From the IMG/VR virus record IMGVR_UViG_3300044739_000008, positions 1 through 50,925 of that record: a stretch of DNA of 50,925 bases, one strand, 5' to 3'. A program made the position numbers and the translations under genes. Numbering within the stretch: position 1 is the first letter of the stretch; every line of letters starts with the position of its first letter. This stretch comes from a virus. Lineage: Duplodnaviria > Caudoviricetes. Under the pieces are notes generated by a model. The model searched no databases. It saw only the letters and a program-made list of their open reading frames with translations, and was not told the origin of the DNA. Below are positions 4,765 through 25,265 of the stretch, one piece after another.

Positions 4765-5066
4765 CCGCCGCCTTGGGCGTAGAACTCGACCAGGTCAAAC
4801 AGGCGGTCCCTGGTCTTGACCGCGTCCTGTAGGTGCCGCTCGACGGCGGGACCGGGTGGCGGAGCCTCGGACATCGCCGACGCTAGCTGGTCCCACTCCT
4901 CCTCCGACAGCGACAGAAACGCGGGCATCTCCTCGCCGGGTTGAGTTGGGACGAACCGGCGCGCGGCTCGCTCCTCGGGGACGCCGTACACGACCGCCCG
5001 GTTGTCCGCCGTCATGAGGTAGATATTGACGCGCTGGCGCGGCCAGTCGCGCTCGACCTTCATCAT
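4761..5066 (-). CDS. Hypothetical protein
   Basis: ATGA overlap with the thyX-like stop, SD GGAGG. Confidence 0.7.
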   Translation of the reverse strand: MMKVERDWPRQRVNIYLMTADNRAVVYGVPEERAARRFVPTQPGEEMPAFLSLSEEEWDQLASAMSEAPPPGPAVERHLQDAVKTRDRLFDLVEFYAQGGG

Positions 5067-6193
5067 CGGCGGTCCTCCGCTCGGGTCCGTCCGGCGTCCG
5101 GGTCGGCCAGCCACTCAGCCGTGTCGATCTCCTCGAAGGCGCCGCGCTGGACGCGCTCGCGGATCGTACACCCACGGTCGAAGTCCGCCGTGAACGGGCA
5201 GTGCCCGAGCTTGTAGCAGACCGGCTTGAACAACTCGCTCCCGGCGATCCGCTCGAACTGCCAGGCCTGGGGAGCCTCAAACGTGAGGTCCTCCTTCATG
5301 TACGCGGGCGGCGTGTGGTACTGGATCGCCTGGACGATCTCGATGAATACCGCCCGCCAGATGAACTGCGCCTGCGTACAGAGCCGGTTCCCCGCGTGCT
5401 CCACGAGGTTGCGGAGGTTCGTCTTGTAGTTGAGCCGGGTCGGCGTGGCCTGGGGCAGGAGCCCGCGCGCGTCCTCGGCGGGGACGCCGTTGTTCACGAG
5501 GTAGTTGTAGCCGTCCTCGATCGCGTCCACCGTCCCGGTCCAGATGTCCGCCGCGTCCGAGTCCTCGCGGATCGTCGGCGGGAGGCTCACCTCATCGGCG
5601 AGGTTCCCCTTGACGGCGAACCGCAGGGACTCCTGCGCGTACACCGCCGTCCTCTGACGGACCAGCTGGTGGGTGAAGGCGCGGTCCACGTTCTCGATGA
5701 AGAAGTGAAACTCCACCGTCTCGTGCGGAGCCCGCAGATGCGTCTTGAGGGACTCGGCCCAGTAGTGCTCGCGCTCCTCGTCGGTGATCTCGGCGAGGCT
5801 GTAGGTCGGCTTCCCCTCGTACATCCGACAGAAGGCGGCGACCGCTCCGAGCGGGTCCGGCGTAGCCCAGAGCAGGCTCACCTTCGGCCCGCCGCGCTCG
5901 ATCGGCGCCGCCTCGAACTGAGCGGCGTCTCCCCACTTGGTCAGGTCGGTGCCGGGCTCGGGACCGGGCTCGATCGTGATGGGGTCCGGGCCAAGCGTGG
6001 ACGCGGTGGCTTCATCGATCATGCCCATCCTGTGAAGCTCCTCGTCGGGCACGTCCCAGTACACCATGTCGCGCTGGAAGTAGCGGCGCCACACCTGGTC
6101 TTGATCGAGCCGCAGATGCCCGTCCTGGTCGATGCCGCGCTCAACGGCGCGCTGGTACTCGATCTTTGCGTACTGCGCGTCAGTCGGGCTCAC
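5063..6193 (-). CDS. thyX: Divergent ThyX-like flavin-dependent thymidylate synthase
   Basis: VDRAFTHQLVRQRTAVYAQESLRF, GVPAEDARGLLP, NLRNL...RLC..AQ; about 100-aa N-terminal extension. Confidence 0.85.
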   Translation of the reverse strand: MSPTDAQYAKIEYQRAVERGIDQDGHLRLDQDQVWRRYFQRDMVYWDVPDEELHRMGMIDEATASTLGPDPITIEPGPEPGTDLTKWGDAAQFEAAPIERGGPKVSLLWATPDPLGAVAAFCRMYEGKPTYSLAEITDEEREHYWAESLKTHLRAPHETVEFHFFIENVDRAFTHQLVRQRTAVYAQESLRFAVKGNLADEVSLPPTIREDSDAADIWTGTVDAIEDGYNYLVNNGVPAEDARGLLPQATPTRLNYKTNLRNLVEHAGNRLCTQAQFIWRAVFIEIVQAIQYHTPPAYMKEDLTFEAPQAWQFERIAGSELFKPVCYKLGHCPFTADFDRGCTIRERVQRGAFEEIDTAEWLADPDAGRTRAEDRR

Positions 6194-6420
6194 AGCCGCT
6201 TCCCTTCGACATCGTGCCGCGCGACGGCGGCGTTGCCCCAGAACATCGCCTCCTCTAGCGCCGTGATCATGAGAGACTTCTCACGGCACTCGAAGGGGAC
6301 GAGCGTGTTCAGTTCGACCGCCGCGACTAGGCAGCTATCGCGGATCGCCGAGTGAACCTCACCTTTGGCCGGGTCCGCCGGGTGGAAGGCGAACCTGTTT
6401 TGGATGTCGCCTGATTCCAT
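6190..6420 (-). CDS. Acb2/Tad1-like hairpin protein (putative immune-signal sponge)
   Basis: IQNRFAFHP...CREKSLMITALEEAMFWGNAAVAR; strong SD GAGGAGG. Confidence 0.72.
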   Translation of the reverse strand: MESGDIQNRFAFHPADPAKGEVHSAIRDSCLVAAVELNTLVPFECREKSLMITALEEAMFWGNAAVARHDVEGKRL

Positions 6421-9400
6421 TGTGCTACCTCCTCGTCAGTGACAGAGATGACCGCGAAGTCGGTGACGTATATCTCGCGGGCGGCTCGCCACGATGGCTT
6501 GTACCCTTGTACCCACACCACGTCCTTTTCGAGCGTGGTGCCCCAGATCGGCCGCTTGAACTGCGGGTAACGCCAGCGGTCGAATCGAAGTCTCAGAAGC
6601 TCCTTGCCGTCATCGCCGAGCATGAGCAGGAACTCGCGCAGATGCGGGTCTTTCATCGTCGCCTCGTCTAGCTCGGTGCCATGCGCGCGGTTCGTCTCGA
6701 AGATGTCGCGCAGGTTCCGGTTGAGGGCGACTCCTACCCAGGTGACCGTCTCCTTCAAGCCCTCGCCGTAGGGGACATCGAGAGAGGAGTGCGTCGGCGC
6801 GGTCATCGTCTCGCTCGCCTCGATCGCCTCGCGCGCGATGGCGATGCGCTTGTCGATCTCGAAGATGCCGAGCGGGTCGTCTGAGGCGCCGAACTCCTTG
6901 ATGCCCTCGATCGTCTTGGGGCCGATCCCCTTGACCTCGATCATGTCCTCCCAGGCGGTCCAGCGGCGCCGTCCCGGCGTCCTGACGATCTCCTCGGCGA
7001 GCGCGTCACCGACCTTCGGCAGCTGCTTGTAGCCCATGCGGACCTTCCCGCCGTCGCGCACCGGCGTCCAGTCGAGCGCCTTGCCTCCGAGCTTCGGCGG
7101 CGTGGCCTTGATGGCGTGCGCGTCGGCGTCTCGGAGGAGCGGGACGCGGGCGCCGTCGCCCATCGCTCGAAGCGCAGCCGCGTAGAACACCTCAGGGTGG
7201 TGCTGCTTGATCCACTGGCACTGGTAGCTGATCATCCCGTAGGCGAGCGAGTGCGCCAGGTTGAAGGAGTAGGCGCCCGCCGTTATGAGGCTCATCCAGA
7301 GCGCGTAGACCTTGTCGGGCTCGAAGTCCGGGTGCCGCCTCGCGGCGCCGTCTAGGAACTCCTGCCGCTTGCGGTTGAACGCCTGCTCGCCTTCCTTCTT
7401 GGCGATGATCTTGCGGATCGCGGCTGCGGCGGTCCAGTCGAAGTCGCCGACCTCCCGGACAATCCTGAGTATCTGTTCCTGGTAGACGATCTGGTGGTTG
7501 GTGAACCCGAGGATCGGCTCAAGGGACGGGTGCCAGCGCTCCGGCTCGACGTCACCGCGCTTGACCTGGACATACGCCTCGGCGGCGCCGTTGTGGAGCG
7601 GTCCCGGTCGTGCGATCGCGGGGACGAGGCACACCTCATCGAAGTTGTCGGGCTTGAGTTCGTTGTTGATGAGCCGGGTCGCCTGCCCCTCATACTGGAA
7701 GATGCCGATCACGTCGCCTCGGCGGAAGCCGTCGAGCGTCGTCTGGTCGTCCAGCGGGAGATCGTACATGTCCTGTAGTTCGAGCCCGAGCCACGTACAG
7801 GCGTAGTTGATCAGCGTCATCGTGTTGAGTCCGAGGTAGTCCATCTTCAGGAGCCCCAGGCGCTCGGCGTCCTTGAGATCGACGGACACAACCTCGATCT
7901 CGTGCCCCTTGATCGTCCGCTGGTACACCGGCGCGACCTTCCGCACGTCCCCGAGGACGAGCCCGGCAGCGTGTACGCCGAAGCCCTTGACGTTGCCTTC
8001 GAGATCGGCGGCGCGGCGTAGCTCGGGATAGCGCTCCATGACCTCGCGCGACTCCTCGAACTGCTCCACCGTGTCCTCGATCGTCGCCGACGCGCGCAGG
8101 TCGCCGGACGAGCGCTCGATGAGTTGGTCTTTGATCACCTTCACGTCCCAGTCCGGGACGTTGTAGACGCGGGCGACGTCATCCAGGCTGTTCTTGGATC
8201 GGTAGTAGGTGAAGGTCCCGAGGTTGTACACCCGGCCCTCGCCGTACTTGCGCACCAGGTACTCGCGGAGCTTCCAGCGCGTCTCCGAGTCGAAGTCGAG
8301 ATCAATGTCGGGTAGGTCGTGCCGGTTCGCATCAATGAATCGCTCGAACACCAACTGGTGGAACACGATCGGATCGACCTCCGTGATGCGCAGGAGGTAG
8401 GCGACGAGGGACGCCGCAGCCGAGCCTCGCCCCGGCCCGACCGCGACACCGTGATCCTTGGCCCAGACAACGGAGTCGGCGACCACGACGAAGTACCACT
8501 CAAAGCCCTTGGACTCGATCATCTCCATCTCATACAGCAGGCGCTTCCGGTACTCCTCGCGCTTCGCCGGAGCGAGCTTGTGGATGCCCCGATAGCGCCA
8601 GCCGTCCTTGATCCAGTCGCGCCAGAGGCTCCGCAGGTCCGAGTAGCCGGGAGGCAGCGGGTACTCGATCATGGGCAGTTGCGGGAGCGTCACGTTGCAA
8701 TCCTGGGCGATCGTCTCGGTGTTGAGGATCGCCTCGCGCGCGGCCTCGCGGCTCATCCCAGTCGCCACGAGTCGGCGGAACAGGACGTTGTCGTTGATCG
8801 GCGGGCAGAGCGGCGCGTCATAGCCCCAGTCGCGCTCAAGCTCCTCCAACGACCGCTTCTCACCCGGTCGGGTGTTGTGGAGTATCTTCTGAACCTCGGA
8901 TTCCTCAGGCGCCGTGTAGTGGCAATCAAGATCGGCGACGAGCGGGATGCCGGTGGCGCGGCTGATCCGCTCGATCATCGGATTAGCCTGGCGTGTCTTC
9001 TCAAGCTCGGGGAAGGCCTGAACCTCCAGGAAGTAGCGGTCACCGAAGTTCGAGCGGAAGCGCTCGGCGACTCCGAGCCCGCGCTTGTAGCTCGCGTCCT
9101 CGGGCTCGACCAGCTTGCCGCCGACGAGGGACGTGAACAGGAGCGAGCCCTGACAACCGCTCATGACGATGAGCCCGCTCCCCTCCTCCGCCAGCATCTC
9201 CTCGCTGACGGTCGGCTCGCTGTAGAACCCCTCGGAGTAGGAGCGCGAGACGAGGCTGATGAGGTTGCCGTAGCCCTCCTGGTCCTTGGCGAGGATCGTC
9301 AGGTGATTCTTCTTGCGGGTCCGGTTCGTCTCGTCCACGGCGCCGGTGTACAACTCGCATCCGAAGATCGGCTTGATGCCCTCGGCCTTCGCCGCCTTTT

Positions 9401-9779
9401 CGAGCTTGACGTGCGACGCCATGTTGCCGTGCTCGGTGAGCGCGAGCGCCGACATCCCTAGCTCGGCGGCTCGCCGCACGTGCGCCTCGGGTAGCTGGTA
9501 GCCATCGAGGTAGCTGAAGGTGGAGTGGTGGTGGAGCGAGACGAACCGCTGCGGCTTCAGGTTCCCGTTCTTGTCCCGCCGCACGCCCACCGGCGTCTTG
9601 TGCTCGTGAGCGTGCGGCTCCTCCTTGACCTCGCCTCGGAAGCCGAGCTTGCCGGCGCCGACCTGCGCGCCGGAGGAGCCCTGTCGATGGCTGTGGGTCG
9701 TGTCCTCGTCGGGATCACGCCACGAGCCCGAGGAGCCCTTGCCGGCGCGAGGGATGCGGACGTTCCGGCTCACCACCAC
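6327..9779 (-). CDS. dnaE: DnaE-like DNA polymerase III alpha subunit
   Basis: PHP motifs (LHHHSTFSYLDG, ALTEHG, DCHY), GPGRGSAAASLVAY, PDIDLDFD, LKMDYLGL, YSFNLAHS. Confidence 0.97.
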   Translation of the reverse strand: MVVSRNVRIPRAGKGSSGSWRDPDEDTTHSHRQGSSGAQVGAGKLGFRGEVKEEPHAHEHKTPVGVRRDKNGNLKPQRFVSLHHHSTFSYLDGYQLPEAHVRRAAELGMSALALTEHGNMASHVKLEKAAKAEGIKPIFGCELYTGAVDETNRTRKKNHLTILAKDQEGYGNLISLVSRSYSEGFYSEPTVSEEMLAEEGSGLIVMSGCQGSLLFTSLVGGKLVEPEDASYKRGLGVAERFRSNFGDRYFLEVQAFPELEKTRQANPMIERISRATGIPLVADLDCHYTAPEESEVQKILHNTRPGEKRSLEELERDWGYDAPLCPPINDNVLFRRLVATGMSREAAREAILNTETIAQDCNVTLPQLPMIEYPLPPGYSDLRSLWRDWIKDGWRYRGIHKLAPAKREEYRKRLLYEMEMIESKGFEWYFVVVADSVVWAKDHGVAVGPGRGSAAASLVAYLLRITEVDPIVFHQLVFERFIDANRHDLPDIDLDFDSETRWKLREYLVRKYGEGRVYNLGTFTYYRSKNSLDDVARVYNVPDWDVKVIKDQLIERSSGDLRASATIEDTVEQFEESREVMERYPELRRAADLEGNVKGFGVHAAGLVLGDVRKVAPVYQRTIKGHEIEVVSVDLKDAERLGLLKMDYLGLNTMTLINYACTWLGLELQDMYDLPLDDQTTLDGFRRGDVIGIFQYEGQATRLINNELKPDNFDEVCLVPAIARPGPLHNGAAEAYVQVKRGDVEPERWHPSLEPILGFTNHQIVYQEQILRIVREVGDFDWTAAAAIRKIIAKKEGEQAFNRKRQEFLDGAARRHPDFEPDKVYALWMSLITAGAYSFNLAHSLAYGMISYQCQWIKQHHPEVFYAAALRAMGDGARVPLLRDADAHAIKATPPKLGGKALDWTPVRDGGKVRMGYKQLPKVGDALAEEIVRTPGRRRWTAWEDMIEVKGIGPKTIEGIKEFGASDDPLGIFEIDKRIAIAREAIEASETMTAPTHSSLDVPYGEGLKETVTWVGVALNRNLRDIFETNRAHGTELDEATMKDPHLREFLLMLGDDGKELLRLRFDRWRYPQFKRPIWGTTLEKDVVWVQGYKPSWRAAREIYVTDFAVISVTDEEVAQWNQATSKTGSPSTRRTRPKVRFTRRSAIAA

Positions 9780-10135
9780 CCGCCTTCGCCGTCGCGGTTC
9801 TTGCCCTGGACGGCGCGGACGGCGAACACGACGAAGTTGATCATGTCGATCAGGTCGTCAATCTTGTACTCCATCGACTCGACGTCATCTGGATCGTAGT
9901 CCCAGAGATCGTCCCACGCTCGCTCGACGCGCTCCCGGATACGGAACAGGCAGCCGCGCCATCCGAACCGGCGCCAGTTGTCCTTGTAGCGGACGTTGCG
10001 CTGGTCATAGACCTTGAGCGCCTTGAGCATGATCTCGTGCTGGAGTCTCAGCGCCTCGTTCCCGTTGAAGTAGACCGTCACGCCGTCCGTCTCGGCGTTG
10101 TCCTCCCAACGCAGCTGGTTGCCCTCCTCGATCAC
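9770..10135 (-). CDS. Nmad1/DUF1599-like all-alpha NTP-pyrophosphatase (MazG-fold) protein
   Basis: RNVRYKDNW..FG..G...RI.ER..R...IDDLIDMINF pattern; GTG start overlapping the VOC gene stop. Confidence 0.65.
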   Translation of the reverse strand: MIEEGNQLRWEDNAETDGVTVYFNGNEALRLQHEIMLKALKVYDQRNVRYKDNWRRFGWRGCLFRIRERVERAWDDLWDYDPDDVESMEYKIDDLIDMINFVVFAVRAVQGKNRDGEGGWW

Positions 10136-10491
10136 GGGCGGACCTCCACGCGGATCGCGTTGGCTGCGAACTCCAGCCAACAGCGGTTGCTCTCGGGCGA
10201 GTCGCGCACGCAGAAGTCGGACGCGGCGCACGTGACGTATCGACCGGCGCCGACGCGGACGGCGAGATGGGCGAGCCCGATGTCCCGGACCGGCCACCGG
10301 CCCTCCTCCGTCGCCACGACGTGGATGGCCGGATCGGTCGCCACCCCTCCGTCAAACCAGCGGACACGCCAACCCTTCGGCACCGCCTCCTCCGGCGCGA
10401 TCTCCTCGAAGCCGATCAGCTTGAAGAACTCCGTCAGGTCGCCGTCCCCTATGCGGAACATCGGCACCTGGAACGTGATGTGGTCGATCAT
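10132..10491 (-). CDS. VOC (glyoxalase/bleomycin-resistance/dioxygenase) family protein
   Basis: MIDHITFQV...FFKLIGFEE...AIHV...AHLAVRV...RVEV; His/His/Glu metal-site pattern. Confidence 0.75.
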   Translation of the reverse strand: MIDHITFQVPMFRIGDGDLTEFFKLIGFEEIAPEEAVPKGWRVRWFDGGVATDPAIHVVATEEGRWPVRDIGLAHLAVRVGAGRYVTCAASDFCVRDSPESNRCWLEFAANAIRVEVRP

Positions 10492-11297
10492 CGGCTACCT
10501 CCGTACAGGTTGAGCCCTTGCCCGCTGAGCCACCGCATCGGTAGCTCCTCCACGAGGATGCGGACCACCTGGCCGATCTCGCGGGGTGTCAAGGCGTCGG
10601 GCATCTTCAGGTCCTTGCGCGCGTAGTCGTCCGCCTCCTCGCGGGTCCAGCCTCGCGCCTCCATCACACCGGCCTGGACTACCTCCCACATGGGCGTCCC
10701 CTCCACGTGGTAGGGGTGAACTACGTGGACGTAGTAGCCCATGTCGGTTAGCTCCCACCCGAGCGTCCGGGCGGCCATCGCCAGTCCGGCCTTCGCCGCG
10801 CAGTACGCCGTCCCGTTTGTGAACGGGTGATCGTGGGCGTAGCTCCCGACGAAGATGATGTGACGCGCGAGCGCGGCGGACCGCTCGCGGTCCTGCCAGT
10901 GGGTGTGCTCGGCGGCTTGGACGAACCTCCGAGCGCACTCCAGCGGAAGCTCCAAGCACCCGCGTAGGATGCGTCGCATCTCATAGTCCTTCATCTCGGC
11001 GAACGCCGTCTTGCCGGTCGTCCCGAGCGTGATGATGAGCGCGTCCGCCTCCCACTTCTGAAACTCCTGGTAGCTGGGCGCGTCATAGAAGGCGTAGGTG
11101 CCCGCCTCATAGCCGAACTCCTCGGCGGTGTCGCCGTGCATCTGGGCGGCGCCCTTCGGCCTCGTCGGCGAGCCGCGCAGGCAGTCATCCATCGTCACCG
11201 CCCAGTTCCACAGGTCCAGTTCGTCGGCAATCGCCTCGCCGATGTTCCCCGAGTCGGGCTTGGCGCCGAGAATGACGGCGCGGTTCCTACCTTCCAT
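10488..11297 (-). CDS. Short-chain dehydrogenase/reductase (SDR)
   Basis: GAKPDSGNIGEAIA Rossmann loop, IIFVGS, YCAAK (YxxxK), WLSGQGLNLYGG. Confidence 0.88.
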   Translation of the reverse strand: MEGRNRAVILGAKPDSGNIGEAIADELDLWNWAVTMDDCLRGSPTRPKGAAQMHGDTAEEFGYEAGTYAFYDAPSYQEFQKWEADALIITLGTTGKTAFAEMKDYEMRRILRGCLELPLECARRFVQAAEHTHWQDRERSAALARHIIFVGSYAHDHPFTNGTAYCAAKAGLAMAARTLGWELTDMGYYVHVVHPYHVEGTPMWEVVQAGVMEARGWTREEADDYARKDLKMPDALTPREIGQVVRILVEELPMRWLSGQGLNLYGGSR

Positions 11298-11970
11298 GTT
11301 GCTCTCTCCATTCGCTTAGACGAGCCTTGAGCAGGGCGGTCCCGGCTCGAAGGTCATCGATGTTCCTGTGCCAGGTGTTCTCGCGGTTCCAGATCGTCGC
11401 GCGCTTGATCGTCACGTCGCCGAACAGGTGGTGAGCCTCGTCCAGCTTCCAGACGAGGTCATCGACCACGGCCACGACGCGCTCGGGCTCGACGCGCTCC
11501 CGTAGGTCCCGGTACTTGTCCGGTCCATACAGCAGGTAGTTGTAGCCGATGCTGTGACGATCGAGCCAGGCGCGCGTGTCCGGGTCGATGCTGTCGTGCT
11601 TGAGGTAGGGGCGCGTCGTCGTGAGCCAGACCTCCGCGCCGTCGAACATCGTGTGGTTGACGAACTCGGCGGCGCCGGGGTAGGCGGGCATCGAGCGCTT
11701 CTGGGCGCCCTGTCGGTAGGCGAGCTTGATGTCCCGGAAGGTCCGGTCATCGACGCCAAACGTCCCGGTGAACCAGGCGCGGAAGGGCTCGCCGCCGCCG
11801 TACAGCATGCGGCCAGCGGGAAGGTACTCCACGTTGAGGTAGCCCGTGGCGAACCTGATGAAGTGCGCGTGGTAGTCGCCGAGCGTCCCGTCGATGTCCA
11901 CGGCGACTACCGGCTTGATCGGTTGTCCACAGCCGCTACAGAGCACGCAGTGCCTCCCTCGCTCGGTCAT
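11287..11970 (-). CDS. HAD-superfamily phosphatase (5'-nucleotidase-like)
   Basis: VAVDIDGTL (motif I), LTTTR (II), K (III), VVDD (IV). Confidence 0.85.
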   Translation of the reverse strand: MTERGRHCVLCSGCGQPIKPVVAVDIDGTLGDYHAHFIRFATGYLNVEYLPAGRMLYGGGEPFRAWFTGTFGVDDRTFRDIKLAYRQGAQKRSMPAYPGAAEFVNHTMFDGAEVWLTTTRPYLKHDSIDPDTRAWLDRHSIGYNYLLYGPDKYRDLRERVEPERVVAVVDDLVWKLDEAHHLFGDVTIKRATIWNRENTWHRNIDDLRAGTALLKARLSEWREQHGR

Positions 11971-12700
11971 ACGCCTCGTGGACGAGCACGCCGCGCTTCC
12001 ATTGGCCGAAGCGCCCGACGCGGAGGACGCCGGGGTGGCAGTCGCAGTTCGTGTAGAGAGGCTTGAACCCCTCGTACACCGTCCGGTTATGCGGCAGGTC
12101 CGCGTGCTCCGTCGAGCCGTGCCCGAACAGGAGGCTGGTCCGGTAGTAGGCGTCGGACTCCTGACCGTTGTAGATCACGCACGGGTCGCCGAGCATCTCA
12201 CAGATGTCGCGGTGCTCGCGCTCGATCCAGACGCGCTTCGCCTTGAAGCGATGATGAGGGCTCGGGCAGTACGCGGTCGGCGGGATCGAGGAGATGACGC
12301 AGCCGTCCTCCTCCGCGAGCGCCGCCATCGCCTGTACGTCGATGAGCCGCTCCTCGATGTACGGCGAGTAGGCGCCCCACAAGCCCTCATAGGCTCGCTT
12401 CATGTCCCAGGCGGGCCGGAGCCCGACCGGAAACGAATCCCACGAGCAGTCGGCGTCCGCCGCGCCGTACAGCTTCAGCGCGTAGCCCTCCCGCGTCCCG
12501 AGCTTCTCAAACTTGATGTGAGCCTCGGGCTCGTCGTCGGTCACGCCGGGGATCGGCTCGTGGATGTAGATCGCTCCGGGCATATCGCTCATCTGGCGCC
12601 GGGTCGCCAGGATACGAACCTGGTGCCCGGCGCCCTTCGCCGCGTGGGCCGCGAGGAGCCCTGCCGGTCCGCATCCGAGGATGGTGACCTTACTCGCCAT
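11936..12700 (-). CDS. FAD-dependent oxidoreductase (compact, UDP-galactopyranose mutase/PPO-like)
   Basis: VTILGCGPAGLLAA, PGAIYIH, ISSIP, C-terminal VGRFGQWK; ATG at 12700 with SD. Confidence 0.8.
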   Translation of the reverse strand: MASKVTILGCGPAGLLAAHAAKGAGHQVRILATRRQMSDMPGAIYIHEPIPGVTDDEPEAHIKFEKLGTREGYALKLYGAADADCSWDSFPVGLRPAWDMKRAYEGLWGAYSPYIEERLIDVQAMAALAEEDGCVISSIPPTAYCPSPHHRFKAKRVWIEREHRDICEMLGDPCVIYNGQESDAYYRTSLLFGHGSTEHADLPHNRTVYEGFKPLYTNCDCHPGVLRVGRFGQWKRGVLVHEAYDRAREALRAL

Positions 12701-23545: not shown

Positions 23546-24571
23546 CTAACCCCTTTCGATCTCCCGGCGCGCTCCCACGCGACGGCTCGGGGACGTGCCC
23601 AGGTCCGCGCGGGCGCCCGCTGCGCTCCCGGCGTAGTAGGCGGACATGTCGGTCGCAAGCTCGCGGGAGACGGCGCCGCCGCCCTTCGACTTCTTGCCGT
23701 CATCCTCGGGCGGCGGAAACATCTCCTGGTACATGTCGTCGGCGACCTGGCGGATGTCCCGGAGCGCGAGCGCGGCGGGGTTGTCGCCGGTGCCCTCGGC
23801 GCGAGCGCGCAGCTGGCGCATCCGCTTGCGGACCTCCGAGACGAAGCCCATCGCGTAGGAGCGCTGGAACACGCCGGGGTGAACGTAGTTGCGCTCCAGC
23901 CCGTTGTCTCTCGCGTGCTTCCGGTTCAGCTGGGCGAGCCGGTTCTTGATCACCTTCCAGTACGCCTCGGGGAGCCGGTCGAACGGCGTGGCCGCCTCGA
24001 TCGTCTCGCCGTCCCGGCTCATGTGCTCGCCGCGCGACGGCTTGACCATCCCGGCCTCCCAGAGGAGCTTGGTGATCCGCTCCCAGTTCATCCCGGCCAT
24101 CCGCATGTCGTAGACGTTCTCCGCGAGCGTCTTGTCGGCGGTCGGCTGACGCTCAAGCTCGCGCCCCATCTGGAGCATGAGGCTCGTGAACATCAGGTCG
24201 AAGTAGTCCAGGTCACTCGGGAGCCCGATCAGCGGCATCTGCGAGTAGCCGCCCGGACCGGAGCCCTGGCCCCGGTACGCGACGACGCAGCGGCAGTGCC
24301 GCGCGCACGCGGTGAACAAGCCCCAAAGCTCGTCGCCGCGCGAGTGCCCCCACCACCAATTGATATCGACGTAGCGCGCCTCCGGCTTCGGGCGGGCCGT
24401 GACGCCGTCCTGGGCCTGATCGACCTGCCACTGCTCGATCGCGTAGGCGGTCATCAACTCGTCCGCCTTCGCCCGGAAGGTCTCAGCCTCCTCGGGGAAG
24501 TTCGTGCTGTCGGCCTTCGCTAGGAGCGCTCGCACCCGCTCCAGCATCTTCGCGTTCCGGTCCTCGTTCAT
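23546..24571 (-). CDS. DUF2786-domain protein
   Basis: MLERVRALLAKADSTNFPEEAETFRAKADELMTAYAI; C-terminal AYYAGSAAGARADL. Confidence 0.85.
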   Translation of the reverse strand: MNEDRNAKMLERVRALLAKADSTNFPEEAETFRAKADELMTAYAIEQWQVDQAQDGVTARPKPEARYVDINWWWGHSRGDELWGLFTACARHCRCVVAYRGQGSGPGGYSQMPLIGLPSDLDYFDLMFTSLMLQMGRELERQPTADKTLAENVYDMRMAGMNWERITKLLWEAGMVKPSRGEHMSRDGETIEAATPFDRLPEAYWKVIKNRLAQLNRKHARDNGLERNYVHPGVFQRSYAMGFVSEVRKRMRQLRARAEGTGDNPAALALRDIRQVADDMYQEMFPPPEDDGKKSKGGGAVSRELATDMSAYYAGSAAGARADLGTSPSRRVGARREIERG

Positions 24572-24599
24572 CTCGTTCATCCTCCTCGTTGGTCTCGTG

Positions 24600-25202
24600 T
24601 TACCAGCCACGCTCGCCGCGACAGACCGGCCCGATGCCGACCGCGCGACTTGTCTCGTCCGTGAGCGTCCGTCCGCACACGCCGCACTCGCCTAGCTCGA
24701 CGCCGTAGCGCATCGTCGCCGCCTTCGGGTCCTCGGCGATCTGCTCCAGGATCGAGCGCTTCAGGTCCGGGCGCTTGATCGCTCCCTCGGCGGGCTCGCC
24801 GTGCGGTCCGCCTCGGAGGCTCTTGAGGAACGTGAAGCCCTCCCACCGGCCCTTGTCGGGGCGATCGACCTTGTAGAACTTCAGCACGCCGTCGCGCTCG
24901 ATCGCGTAACGGCCCTCGGGGACCTCGGGCCACTCGCCCGGACCCTGGCGCAGCTTCGCGTCGAGCACTCGGGTCGGCTCATCGACGCGGTGGGGCTGCG
25001 CCTTGAGCCGCGTGATGAAGTCCGAGGCGCGGAACTTGCTGATGTCGCCCGAGGCGATCCGAGCGTTCATCGCCTCGCGGGCGGCGTCGGGGACCTGCCG
25101 CTGCTTCAGCAGATCGGCGAGGTAGGACAGCTGCCGCTCGGTGGCGGGCGGTCCGCCTTCGCTCGCGGGCGGCGGGGTGGTGGGGTACTCGTTGCGGGGC
25201 AT
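24600..25202 (-). CDS. DUF6011-domain protein
   Basis: C-terminal CGVCGRTLTDETSRAVGIGPVC; N-terminal PATERQLSYLADL. Confidence 0.8.
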   Translation of the reverse strand: MPRNEYPTTPPPASEGGPPATERQLSYLADLLKQRQVPDAAREAMNARIASGDISKFRASDFITRLKAQPHRVDEPTRVLDAKLRQGPGEWPEVPEGRYAIERDGVLKFYKVDRPDKGRWEGFTFLKSLRGGPHGEPAEGAIKRPDLKRSILEQIAEDPKAATMRYGVELGECGVCGRTLTDETSRAVGIGPVCRGERGW

Positions 25203-25217
25203 ACCGGCTCCTCTGGT

Positions 25218-25265
25218 GGTTGAACTCATCGGGTCGATCATAACGCCAGATGCCCCGCCGTTCAA
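25218..25265 (-). promoter_or_regulatory. Sigma70/SigA-type promoter with conserved downstream motif
   Basis: TTGAAC-17 bp-TATGAT then CGACCC-GATGAGTTCAACC. Confidence 0.8.

What the first reader, a model, noticed from the sequence alone, without database searches (positions are those of the whole stretch)
5063..12700. Candidate undescribed nucleotide-modification operon built around a phage DnaE
Seen: eight consecutive overlapping genes encoding an FAD oxidoreductase, HAD phosphatase, SDR, VOC protein, Nmad1/MazG-like protein, DnaE, an Acb2/Tad1-like protein and a divergent ThyX. Established: phages that substitute a base usually pair a thymidylate-synthase-family enzyme with nucleotidases/pyrophosphatases that deplete the normal dNTP and with their own polymerase; Nmad1 was named for its association with such systems. 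Not seen: the markers of known pathways (aGPT-PPlase/hmdU kinase, TET/JBP, PurZ, Que/DpdA, glycosyltransferase). Inference: FAD enzyme, SDR and VOC protein make or tailor a side chain that the altered ThyX installs on a pyrimidine nucleotide, which DnaE incorporates, possibly as anti-restriction armour.
Basis: partly seen in the sequence, partly recalled or inferred. Interest (0 to 1): 0.88.

Follow-up and report, generated by a model that had tools for sequence, protein, structure and literature searches.

The report
Conserved phage ThyX-like thymine-modification gene module
A soil phage carries an eight-gene block, shared with many actinobacterial phages and distantly with Pseudomonas PB1-like phages whose DNA was recently reported to hold sugar-decorated thymine, and it probably makes an unusual thymine-type base by an unstudied flavin-enzyme route.

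Summary
Eight overlapping minus-strand genes (5063-12700) encode a small FAD flavoprotein (A), a HAD phosphatase (B), an SDR (C), a VOC-fold protein (D), an Nmad1-like protein (E), DnaE (F), an Acb2/Tad1-hairpin protein (G) and a divergent ThyX-like enzyme (H).

A, H and DnaE co-occur almost without exception in relatives. B and E are common. C and D are optional. G is unique to this phage.

All 60 full-length ThyX-like genes found beside A lack the canonical RHR histidine (RQR, RSR or RTR). Three ordinary phage ThyX controls keep it.

Six of 80 related IMG/VR loci add a TET-associated glycosyltransferase. Five of them were checked over the whole record and showed no TET/JBP match (that search had no positive control) and no ThyA-type hydroxymethylase.

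The same gene set recurs distantly in Pseudomonas phage 14-1 and Serratia phage SMP. A 2025 preprint reports hypermodified thymidine in PB1-like phages and names no genes for it.

Best reading (0.55): a ThyX-based pyrimidine hypermodification module joined to the replicase. Nothing shows modified DNA in this phage. The window has no recognised glycosyltransferase among the models run and no kinase among the 20 ORFs scanned. An ordinary dTMP-supply role remains a live rival (0.3).

The parts
11936..12700 (-). A: 254-aa FAD-family flavoprotein (phrog_8720; annotated 'oxidoreductase' in SEA-PHAGES genomes). It is UGM-like in fold but much shorter. Found almost only in viral records.
11287..11970 (-). 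B: HAD-superfamily phosphatase with a DIDGT motif, possibly NT5C-like (5'-deoxynucleotidase). The true start may lie at an internal GTG.
10488..11297 (-). C: short-chain dehydrogenase/reductase with YxxxK (YCAAK). An optional part of the module.
10132..10491 (-). D: 119-aa VOC/glyoxalase-fold protein, assigned by structure only. Among relatives it is seen only together with C.
9770..10135 (-). E: 121-aa three-helix protein of an Nmad1 (DUF1599)-like family.
6327..9779 (-). F: DnaE-type DNA polymerase III alpha, 1150 aa. This is the phage replicase.
6190..6420 (-). G: 76-aa Acb2/Tad1 hairpin-domain protein, a candidate cyclic-nucleotide sponge. It lies inside the block but is not part of the conserved module.
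5063..6193 (-). H: 376-aa ThyX-like enzyme. The Thy1 domain spans residues 107-295, the motif is RQR-x7-S-x-R, and the C-terminal extension is conserved. The N-terminal ~85 residues are not conserved.

Best explanation
The block is a replication-linked pyrimidine modification module, most likely for thymidine.

Its conserved core is the ThyX-like enzyme H, the small flavoprotein A and the DnaE replicase. A HAD phosphatase (B) and an Nmad1-like protein (E) usually accompany them.

Proposed mechanism, all inferred. H binds dUMP like ThyX. Instead of, or in addition to, reducing the exocyclic methylene intermediate to dTMP, it releases a C5-functionalised dUMP, most simply 5-hydroxymethyl-dUMP. 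B and E adjust nucleotide pools. DnaE incorporates the analogue. A, with the optional SDR (C) and VOC protein (D), makes or tailors a sugar or polyol group that ends up on the base. G is an unrelated anti-defence insert.

Shown here: gene identities, synteny, co-occurrence, the motif changes, and homology to the Pbunavirus and Serratia phage gene sets.

Inferred: every catalytic step, and the existence of a modified base in this phage.
For: 1. Co-occurrence.
- Of 57 IMG/VR loci found through H that have at least 8 kb upstream, 57 hold DnaE, 54 A, 40 B, 36 E, 12 C and 6 D. Two of the three loci without A are cut off at B.
- Of 85 loci found through A, many cut by contig ends, 75 hold DnaE, 65 B and 62 a ThyX-like gene.
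- In GenBank phages, A hits 126 records. Exactly 126 records cover at least 80% of the H core.

2. A is essentially virus-only. There are 2 full-length hits in one genome for each of 185,579 species, and both are MAG contigs.

3. The ThyX motif.
- All 60 full-length ThyX-like ORFs beside A lack the RHR histidine: 28 RQR and 32 RSR/RTR. One further ORF is truncated.
- Canonical phage ThyX from Gordonia Octobien14, Thermus phiYS40 and Bacillus Anath keep RHR, 3 of 3.
- Against T. maritima ThyX, the motif Arg, Ser and Arg and the ARxxLP arginine are kept. Two His become Gln, and the Tyr after the motif becomes Phe.

4. Modification-type neighbours in relatives.
- A TAGT-like family occurs in 6 of 80 loci. 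In five of them PF20691 matched once per locus, best 8.2e-10.
- Those five whole viral records have no ThyA-type gene (0 of 5; the control rang in 10 of 14 genomes). They also have no TET/JBP match (0 of 5; no positive control).
- MazG, methyltransferase and UDG-superfamily genes also occur.

5. Distant conservation.
- Pseudomonas phage 14-1 has an A homolog, gp66 (hhalign probability 93.7, E 1.8e-7, 181 columns).
- It has a ThyX-like gp60 with RTR.
- Its gp58 joins a HAD_PNKP domain (1.1e-10) to an Nmad1-like C-terminus (E-family profile 9.6e-6). DnaE follows.
- Serratia phage SMP has A-like, ThyX-like, SDR (3.9e-29), VOC-like and DnaE genes.

6. Experimental link. PMC12191111 reports that about a quarter of thymidines in Pbunavirus F8 and 14-1 are hypermodified. 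The nucleosides weigh 362 and 390 U, and the modification sits in a TG context. The authors write that searching for gene homologs already implicated in modification can miss such phages, naming Pbunavirus as the example. I read the abstract, passages and section 8. Phage 14-1 has no ThyA-type gene.
Against: - There is no direct sign of modified DNA for this phage. Only assembled contigs of two soil runs hold it.
- No glycosyltransferase was seen in the window, either by the whole-record TAGT search or in the 20 ORFs scanned. No dNMP or DNA kinase and no dCMP deaminase appeared in those 20 ORFs. The classical hmU pathway needs a kinase (PMC8989533 passages).
- H keeps every nucleotide-binding residue I could align, so it may be a normal thymidylate synthase of a divergent clade.
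- In Pbunavirus three quarters of T stay canonical and the modification is motif-specific. That points to a DNA-level enzyme not identified here, so the shared genes may be bystanders of a shared replication module.
- C and D are in only 12 and 6 of 57 relatives. The window's D shows no sequence relation to the VOC-like family of other relatives (hhalign probability 0.1).
- My paper searches found no report of modified DNA in the cultured actinophage clusters that carry A and H.
Confidence: 0.55

Rival explanations
1. This is ordinary nucleotide supply for a DnaE-type replicase. H is a true but divergent flavin-dependent thymidylate synthase. A is its dedicated flavin or redox partner. B and E are pool-sanitising enzymes. 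C and D are auxiliary metabolic genes with no role in DNA. The DNA is canonical.
For: - H has a full Thy1 domain (1.4e-31) with the nucleotide-binding Arg, Ser and Arg kept.
- The block sits inside a standard replication cassette of primase-helicase, SSB, Sak4, exonuclease and helicase.
- Databases annotate the homologs as thymidylate synthase.
- The window has no recognised kinase or glycosyltransferase among the ORFs and models checked.
- C and D are dispensable in most relatives.
Against: - The RHR histidine is lost in 60 of 60 neighbours of A but kept in 3 of 3 canonical controls.
- H falls below the curated thyX equivalog cut-off.
- Canonical ThyX is not known to need a separate flavoprotein (my recollection, not from a call), yet A accompanies H in 54 of 57 loci.
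- TAGT, Nmad1 and MazG genes are in the same block in relatives.
- Pbunavirus, which has the homologous set and no ThyA-type gene, is reported to have hypermodified T.
Confidence: 0.3
2. A modification exists, but H only supplies dTMP. The base is altered after replication by other, still unrecognised genes. A, C and D make an activated sugar or polyol donor, and an unknown transferase attaches it to thymine in DNA.
For: - In Pbunavirus the modification is partial (about a quarter of T) and tied to a TG context, which suggests a DNA-level, sequence-reading enzyme.
- A's closest fold is a nucleotide-sugar mutase.
- SDRs commonly act on nucleotide sugars (general knowledge).
- Some relatives carry TAGT or a GT1 glycosyltransferase.
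Against: - No TET/JBP-type thymine hydroxylase was matched in the window, in the five TAGT-bearing relatives, or in 14-1 and SMP. That search had no positive control.
- A is about 110 or more residues shorter than the matched mutases, and no GLF hit appeared.
- This reading does not explain why every H beside A has the altered motif.
Confidence: 0.1
3. The co-occurrence reflects shared descent only. These are lineage markers of one large phage group, and the genes have no functional link to one another.
For: - All loci share the same replication cassette and gene order.
- Many of the 80 loci are near-duplicates, for example L008/L009, L015/L016, L032/L033, L047/L048, L052/L053 and L078/L079.
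Against: - The set persists across hosts as distant as Actinomycetota and Pseudomonas or Serratia. DnaE identity is at most about 44% even to the nearest isolated phages (actinobacteriophages).
- Gene order is reshuffled in some relatives. A lies directly next to H in Microbacterium phage Kate, L027 and L034.
- In 14-1 a HAD domain and an Nmad1-like domain are fused in one protein.
Confidence: 0.05

Closest known systems
Hypermodified thymidine of Pbunavirus (PB1-like) Pseudomonas phages, Yee et al. 2025 preprint, PMC12191111
   Same: Phage 14-1 carries distant homologs of A (gp66), H (gp60, RTR motif) and E (the C-terminus of gp58), plus a HAD phosphatase domain and DnaE, in one block. It has no ThyA-type gene.
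   Different: - Identity is very low: H about 29%, and A is detectable only by profile methods.
- HAD and Nmad1-like are fused in 14-1 and separate here.
- The HAD domains belong to different Pfam families, and hhalign did not link B to gp58 (probability 2.2).
- The passages I read assign no genes to the modification, and its Extended Data were not seen.
- Whether this soil phage has any such base is unknown.
Pre-replicative 5-hydroxymethyl-dU pathway of Bacillus hmU phages (SPO1 type) and its hypermodifying derivatives (M6, ViI, SP10, PhiW-14), as described in PMC8989533
   Same: The logic matches: a thymidylate-synthase-type enzyme, nucleotide phosphatase or pyrophosphatase-like proteins, and the phage's own polymerase (passages).
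   Different: - Those pathways use a ThyA-family dUMP hydroxymethylase. None is present here.
- They also use a dNMP kinase, a 5-hmdU DNA kinase and aGPT-PPlases. None was seen in the 20 ORFs scanned, and no dedicated model was run.
Canonical flavin-dependent thymidylate synthase ThyX (T. maritima and M. tuberculosis structures)
   Same: It shares the Thy1 domain and the conserved motif Arg, Ser and Arg and ARxxLP.
   Different: - RHR becomes RQR, a second aligned His becomes Gln, and Tyr becomes Phe.
- There is a roughly 80-residue conserved C-terminal extension, with four Cys invariant in the 36-sequence alignment.
- It falls below the curated equivalog cut-off.
- It is always accompanied by flavoprotein A.
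UDP-galactopyranose mutase (Glf/UGM)
   Same: It is the best structural match to A (Z 15.3, rmsd 3.5 over 242 residues; two more UGMs at 13.3 and 13.2). Both have an N-terminal GxGxxG FAD fold.
   Different: - A has 254 aa against 363-473 in the matched chains.
- Identity is 13-15%.
- There is no Pfam GLF hit.
- The lead over other flavoenzymes is only about 2 Z units.
PolB, the ThyX paralog of polyoxin biosynthesis (mentioned in PMC5954106)
   Same: It is a precedent that ThyX paralogs can be recruited to C5 chemistry other than dTMP supply (passage).
   Different: PolB is a cellular Streptomyces enzyme acting on UMP and dUMP. No sequence comparison was made here.

Membership tests
ThyX / flavin-dependent thymidylate synthase (PF02511, TIGR02170) | Thy1 domain over the Pfam gathering score | tested here: met
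   110.2 bits against a 24.8 cut-off, residues 107-295
ThyX / flavin-dependent thymidylate synthase (PF02511, TIGR02170) | Score over the NCBIfam thyX equivalog cut-off | tested here: not met
   67.9 bits against 87.9
ThyX / flavin-dependent thymidylate synthase (PF02511, TIGR02170) | ThyX motif RHR-x7-S-x-R (motif wording recalled; checked against PDB alignments) | tested here: not met
   The window has RQR-x7-S-x-R. The His is replaced while Arg, Ser and Arg are kept. The change is family-wide, in 60 of 60 neighbours of A.
ThyX / flavin-dependent thymidylate synthase (PF02511, TIGR02170) | Forms dTMP from dUMP, CH2-THF and NAD(P)H | not testable with these tools
   Needs an enzyme assay or complementation.
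UDP-galactopyranose mutase | FAD Rossmann domain plus beta-sheet domain of the UGM fold | tested here: met
   Z 15.3, 13.3 and 13.2 to three UGM entries covering model residues 1-254. Foldseek top 10 are all UGM.
UDP-galactopyranose mutase | Sequence family match (Pfam GLF) and the helical uridine-binding domain | tested here: not met
   No GLF hit even at E up to 10. A has 254 aa against 363-473 in the matched chains. Absence of the helical domain is inferred from length, not mapped.
Nmad1 (PF07659, DUF1599) | Match to the Pfam model | tested here: inconclusive
   The window's E has no hit. 13 of 30 aligned family members hit, best 1.6e-6. ESM features score 0.94 to an Nmad1-named cluster.
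MazG-like all-alpha NTP pyrophosphohydrolase | Helical-bundle fold with significant similarity to MazG, dCTPase or AF0060 | tested here: inconclusive
   Foldseek best is 2p06 (AF_0060) at E 0.31 and TMt 0.69; dCTPases score E 1.5-2.8. The profile against PDB gives 2p06 at E 0.74. hhalign against a MazG family gives probability 0.7.
VOC / glyoxalase superfamily | Paired beta-alpha-beta-beta-beta fold | tested here: met
   TM 0.69-0.74 to eight Glyoxalase clusters over residues 1-119. No Pfam, PHROG or NCBIfam hit. Metal ligands were not examined.
Short-chain dehydrogenase/reductase | adh_short domain and catalytic YxxxK | tested here: met
   7.3e-11. YCAAK is present, and the glycine-rich motif is degenerate.
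HAD phosphatase, NT5C-like | DxDGT nucleophile motif and a family model match | tested here: inconclusive
   DIDGT is present. phrog_415 matches at 4.8e-15. NT5C scores only 0.06 for the window copy. NT5C at 7.7e-7 matched 3 ORFs in related loci whose identity the output does not give.
Acb2/Tad1 cyclic-nucleotide sponges | Acb2_Tad1 hairpin domain | tested here: met
   PF24729 at 1e-16, 61.3 bits against 27. Only weak PDB sequence hits: Acb2 homolog at 0.071 and Tad1 at 0.091. Ligand binding was not tested.
SPO1-type hmU pathway | ThyA-family dUMP hydroxymethylase | tested here: not met
   PF00303 found in 0 of 1 (whole record); the control rang in 10 of 14 genomes.
SPO1-type hmU pathway | Phage dNMP kinase and dCMP deaminase | tested here: inconclusive
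   None among the 20 window ORFs scanned with Pfam. The rest of the genome was not scanned.
aGPT-PPlase / 5-hmdU DNA kinase thymidine hypermodification | aGPT-PPlase and P-loop 5-HMUDK genes | not tested
   No dedicated model was run. None was seen in the 20 ORFs scanned.
Pbunavirus-type gene set | A-like flavoprotein, His-less ThyX-like enzyme, Nmad1-like and HAD domains next to DnaE | tested here: met
Pbunavirus-type gene set | Hypermodified thymidine in virion DNA | not testable with these tools
   Only Logan contigs of two soil metagenome runs hold this phage.

The most novel reading that the evidence does not exclude
H and the UGM-like flavoprotein A carry out a folate-independent reductive C5-alkylation of dUMP. 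A reduced-flavin N5 iminium is formed with an aldose, as UGM does with galactose, instead of with the folate methylene, as ThyX does. The sugar carbon is passed to C5 of uracil, giving C-linked polyhydroxyalkyl-deoxyuridines. SDR and VOC enzymes then tailor them.

My own arithmetic fits the two Pbunavirus masses. dU (228) plus pentose (150) minus water (18) plus 2H gives 362. dU plus hexose (180) minus water gives 390.

The O-linked readings fit equally well. hmdU (258) plus tetritol (122) minus water gives 362, and hmdU plus pentose minus water gives 390.
Probability: 0.08. Interest if true: 0.95.

Novelty: new variant of a known kind. Interest (0 to 1): 0.8.

Why it matters
Known thymidine hypermodification pathways, as described in PMC8989533, start from a ThyA-type hydroxymethylase or a TET/JBP dioxygenase. 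This module has no ThyA-type gene and gave no TET/JBP match, and it is built on a ThyX-like enzyme plus a virus-specific flavoprotein.

It is widespread. A hits 126 GenBank actinophage genomes and at least 198 IMG/VR stretches. H has 2,699 relatives at E <= 1e-3 in the protein collection.

The homologous gene set in PB1-like therapeutic Pseudomonas phages gives concrete candidate genes for a hypermodification. The passages I read of the preprint that reports it assign no genes. That open question becomes testable with a few deletions.

Several easily grown SEA-PHAGES phages could be checked by LC-MS at once.

If the ordinary reading is right instead, the result still defines a distinct, histidine-less ThyX clade with an obligate flavoprotein partner.

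Tried and rejected
- **Near-identical DNA in GenBank phages.** Only a 55-bp DnaE match turned up.
- **tblastn of D and E against GenBank phages.** No match.
- **PDB sequence search with B.** Nothing meaningful.
- **E-family profile against PDB.** Nothing significant.
- **hhalign of the E family against a MazG family of relatives.** No support.
- **hhalign of the VOC-like family f27 against the window's D.** No support, although f27 matches the Serratia phage VOC-like protein at probability 99.3.
- **hhalign of the B family against 14-1 gp58.** No support.
- **Complex prediction of H (residues 85-376) with A.** The verdict was 'no answer', score 0.00, and the controls were not run. It counts neither for nor against binding.
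- **TAGT-like protein against GenBank phages.** Only a partial hit in Nonlabens phage P12024L.
- **Cellular homologs of A.** There were 7 loci. Two are full-length and both are MAG contigs. The other five match only the first 34-44 residues.
- **Four-Cys metal site in H.** I considered it as a defining feature. It is invariant in the 36-sequence alignment. The homologs in Microbacterium phage Kate (0 Cys) and Arthrobacter phage Wollypog (1 Cys) lack it, so I dropped it as a clade-wide feature.
- **Sequencing runs.** Two soil metagenome runs hold the stretch, both kept only as assembled contigs, so no read-level signal of modification could be sought.
- **Paper searches.** Eight searches found no paper assigning a function to the actinophage 'oxidoreductase' plus 'ThyX-like' pair, and none assigning genes to the Pbunavirus modification.
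- **Material not seen.** Supplementary and Extended Data files were not seen and may bear on this. For PMC13326640 I saw only the abstract and outline. For PMC12390725, PMC7302621, PMC5954106 and 10.64898/2026.05.19.726188 I saw only passages. The last one turned out to be irrelevant.

Full report
**What the window is.** It is a complete 50,925-bp viral record with direct terminal repeats. GC content is 65-68%, and essentially all long ORFs lie on the minus strand. It has no close relative among 50,697 GenBank phage records. Its DnaE is at most about 44% identical to those of actinobacteriophages. Two soil metagenome runs hold the stretch, and one of them may be its source.

**The observation.** Eight minus-strand genes run from 12700 to 5063 with overlapping ends of 35, 11, 4, 4, 10, up to 94 and 4 nt.

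Direct HMM matches cover four genes:
- the SDR (7.3e-11);
- DnaE (3.5e-65, 1.2e-37 and 7.4e-36 for three domains);
- the Acb2/Tad1 hairpin protein (1e-16);
- the Thy1 domain (1.4e-31).

The other four needed more work.
- **A.** It has only Rossmann-motif hits, but it belongs to phrog_8720 (4.5e-51). With a 44-sequence alignment it folds at pLDDT 96.9. The model is a two-domain FAD-family protein. UDP-galactopyranose mutases are the best matches in both searches. In Foldseek all top ten are UGM (E 3e-9 to 3e-8). In VIA-align, three UGM entries score Z 15.3, 13.3 and 13.2, and other flavin oxidases and monooxygenases score 13.0 or less. A has 254 residues against 363-473 for those mutases.
- **B.** It has the HAD nucleophile motif DIDGT, a PHROG match to the polynucleotide-kinase/phosphatase family (4.8e-15) and a weak NT5C match (0.06). 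NT5C matched three ORFs in five related loci at up to 7.7e-7. That output gives counts only, and I take these to be B homologs.
- **D.** It has no HMM match. The ESM Atlas holds this exact sequence, and its model aligns to glyoxalase/VOC clusters at TM 0.69-0.74.
- **E.** Trimmed to the GTG that overlaps D's stop codon, E has no match of its own. In an alignment of 30 syntenic relatives, 13 members match PF07659. Pfam describes that family as Nucleotide modification associated domain 1. Its model has three long helices (pLDDT 83.7). The best structural neighbours are AF_0060 and dCTP pyrophosphatases, but at non-significant E-values. 'Nmad1-like' therefore stands, and 'MazG-like' remains a weak lead.

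Over the whole record there is no match to TAGT, TET/JBP, TGT, adenylosuccinate synthetase or ThyA models. The TET/JBP search rang in no control genome, and the TAGT controls gave only sub-cut-off matches.

**Is the block more than a chance neighbourhood?** In GenBank phages, A is found in 126 records: Gordonia 46, Microbacterium 36, Mycobacterium 32, Streptomyces 9, Arthrobacter 2 and Nocardia 1. Exactly 126 records cover at least 80% of the core of H. I did not check that the two sets are identical.

Annotated examples show the same order in five phages: Mycobacterium phage Delton, Streptomyces phage Gibson, Arthrobacter phage Wollypog, Microbacterium phage Kate and Gordonia phage Yikes. The order is oxidoreductase, a phosphatase or phosphohydrolase or hypothetical gene, sometimes a methyltransferase and a FabG-like reductase, then DnaE, then a ThyX-like thymidylate synthase. 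Kate has the smallest set, with A directly overlapping the ThyX-like gene.

In IMG/VR, 198 stretches encode a relative of A, and 80 loci were fetched. I examined 85 loci, the 80 plus five GenBank ones. By tblastn at E <= 1e-3:

| Gene | Loci with a hit, of 85 |
|---|---|
| DnaE | 75 |
| B | 65 |
| ThyX-like | 62 |
| Primase-helicase | 55 |
| C | 18 |
| E | 15 |
| D | 1 |
| G | 0 |

Many loci are cut by contig ends. Clustering raises the E family to 42 loci.

In the reverse direction, 80 loci were fetched through H, and 57 of them have at least 8 kb upstream.

| Gene | Loci with a hit, of 57 |
|---|---|
| DnaE | 57 |
| A | 54 |
| B | 40 |
| E | 36 |
| C | 12 |
| D | 6 |
| G | 0 |

All six loci with D also hold C. 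Two of the three loci without A end at B. The two locus sets share contigs, and several loci are near-duplicates, so these are not independent counts.

A is almost confined to viruses. A scan of one genome for each of 185,579 prokaryote species gave two full-length hits, both on MAG contigs.

**The ThyX-like enzyme.** H has 2,699 relatives at E <= 1e-3. The best 120 are 52-69% identical over about 77% of its length, so the first ~85 residues are not conserved, whereas the ~80-residue C-terminal extension is.

Alignment to solved ThyX proteins shows which residues are kept and which are changed. The residue roles are from my memory of the ThyX literature, not from a call.
- The motif arginines and serine and the ARxxLP arginine are kept.
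- The motif reads RQR instead of RHR.
- A second histidine, aligned to the T. maritima sequence ...RADSHAQ..., is glutamine.
- The tyrosine after the motif is phenylalanine.

Of 61 ThyX-like ORFs found beside A, 28 have RQR, 32 have RSR or RTR, and one is truncated. None has RHR. Three canonical phage ThyX proteins, taken from the weak end of the same tblastn list, all have RHR. H scores below the curated thyX equivalog cut-off.

Four cysteines are invariant in my 36-sequence alignment. They are missing in the Kate and Wollypog homologs.

**What else sits in the block in relatives.** Pfam on representatives of the recurrent families gave:
- a TET-associated glycosyltransferase (PF20691, 38 bits against a 27.5 cut-off) in 6 of 80 loci, twice directly upstream of the ThyX-like gene and once between A and B;
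- a VOC-like family directly after the SDR in seven loci;
- SAM methyltransferases;
- a MazG protein in the position of E;
- a UDG-superfamily protein;
- an HU-like protein.

I scanned five TAGT-bearing loci in bulk, and PF20691 matched five ORFs, one per locus. Their whole viral records, four of them at least 90% complete, have no ThyA-type gene (0 of 5; the control rang in 10 of 14 genomes). They also have no TET/JBP match (0 of 5; no positive control). By its Pfam name, this glycosyltransferase is associated with the TET enzymes that make hydroxymethyl-pyrimidines. Here it lies in genomes whose only recognisable C5-pyrimidine enzyme is the ThyX-like protein.

**The link to Gram-negative phages.** The tblastn hits of H include 291 Pseudomonas records.

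In Pseudomonas phage 14-1 the 'FAD-dependent thymidylate synthase' gp60 has RTR, the same RLC stretch and C-terminal cysteines. BLASTP to H gives 1.4e-21. Two genes of that region also match:
- gp66 matches the A profile at both ends and by hhalign at probability 93.7, E 1.8e-7, over 181 columns.
- gp58 joins a HAD_PNKP phosphatase domain (1.1e-10) to a C-terminal region that matches the E-family profile (9.6e-6 in a 249-ORF search).

A proofreading exonuclease and DnaE follow.

Serratia phage SMP has, in order, an A-like gene, the ThyX-like gene and a 471-aa unknown. Next come an SDR (3.9e-29; BLASTP to the window's C 9e-12) and a VOC-like protein, which matches the VOC-like family of the IMG/VR relatives by hhalign at probability 99.3. 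An exonuclease and DnaE close the block.

Neither phage has a ThyA-type gene. Neither has a TET/JBP match, though that search again had no positive control.

**What is known about those phages.** I read the abstract, passages and section 8 of a 2025 preprint, PMC12191111. It reports the following.
- DNA of Pbunavirus F8 resists restriction enzymes whose sites contain TG.
- F8 and 14-1 DNA contain new nucleosides of 362 and 390 U that replace about a quarter of thymidines.
- Searching for gene homologs already implicated in modification can miss such phages, with Pbunavirus named as the example.

I found no paper in the library that assigns genes to this modification. I also found none that discusses the function of the actinophage oxidoreductase plus ThyX-like pair. 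Extended Data and supplements were not available to me.

**Interpretation.** The best-supported reading is that this is a ThyX-based pyrimidine modification module travelling with a DnaE replicase. The core is H plus A. B and E are frequent helpers that are fused in one Pbunavirus protein. SDR, VOC, methyltransferase, MazG and glycosyltransferase genes are interchangeable tailoring or pool-control parts.

The simplest chemistry rests on an intermediate described in PMC8989533 (passage): ThyX passes through an exocyclic methylene. I propose that H releases 5-hydroxymethyl-dUMP by hydration of that intermediate instead of reducing it. The hydroxyl would then serve as the anchor for sugars or polyols.

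This is inference. Several points count against it.
- The window has no recognised kinase or transferase among the ORFs and models checked.
- C and D are absent from most relatives.
- The Pbunavirus modification is partial and context-dependent.
- H may simply be a divergent thymidylate synthase whose flavin is served by A.

I put 0.55 on the modification reading and 0.30 on ordinary dTMP supply. I put 0.10 on a post-replicative route in which H is a bystander, and 0.05 on co-inheritance alone.

G, the Acb2/Tad1-like gene, is not part of the module. It is absent from all 165 related loci, and its ORF overlaps the 3' end of DnaE.

**Verdict.** The module is a new variant of a known kind of system, phage thymidine hypermodification. 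It is built on different enzymes, and it offers specific candidate genes for an open question.

Noticed in passing
window 6190-6420 (-): The Acb2/Tad1 hairpin-domain ORF overlaps the 3' end of DnaE by up to 94 nt. Its only other in-frame starts are at codons 51 and 59, inside the Pfam domain. It is absent from all 165 related loci, so it looks like a recent anti-CBASS/Thoeris-type insert.
   Followed up: partly
L035:15034-15846, L045:15627-16439, L076:10786-11616, L026:3165-4157, L070:301-1122, L083:19-270: TET-associated glycosyltransferase-like genes (PF20691) occur in relatives. In the five whose whole records were searched (L083 was not), no ThyA-type gene and no TET/JBP match were found. 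In L035 and L045 the gene lies directly upstream of the ThyX-like gene, and in L076 it lies between A and B.
   Followed up: partly
L071:12413-13072 and family f45 (L072, L080, L084, L086): A uracil-DNA-glycosylase-superfamily protein (PF03167, 3.6e-21) sits between B and DnaE in five related loci. This is odd for phages that may carry uracil-derived bases.
   Followed up: no
L065:8930-9640 and family f22 (8 loci): A pyrimidine-dimer DNA glycosylase-like gene (Pyr_excise, 2.2e-8) lies just upstream of A in eight related loci.
   Followed up: no
L010:9536-9937 and family f13 (17 loci): An HU-like DNA-binding protein (Bac_DNA_binding, 1.9e-4, just under the cut-off) lies directly upstream of the ThyX-like gene in many relatives.
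   Followed up: no
L004, L005, L040, L070, L072, L073, L084, L086: DnaE is split into two ORFs in several relatives. In Arthrobacter phage Wollypog an HNH endonuclease gene lies between the halves.
   Followed up: no
L173:7027-8043 (Pseudomonas phage 14-1 gp58): The gene annotated 'polynucleotide kinase/phosphorylase' has a HAD_PNKP phosphatase domain and a C-terminal Nmad1-like region. Pfam found no kinase domain.
   Followed up: partly
window 23546-24610 and 24600-25265 (-): Two adjacent genes carry DUF2786 with DUF7168, and DUF6011. DUF6011 also occurs in two of the five TAGT-bearing relatives.
   Followed up: no
window 5063-6193 (-), residues 272, 326, 332, 342: Four cysteines are invariant in 36 close relatives of H, which suggests a metal site in the C-terminal extension. 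They are missing in the Microbacterium phage Kate and Arthrobacter phage Wollypog homologs.
   Followed up: partly
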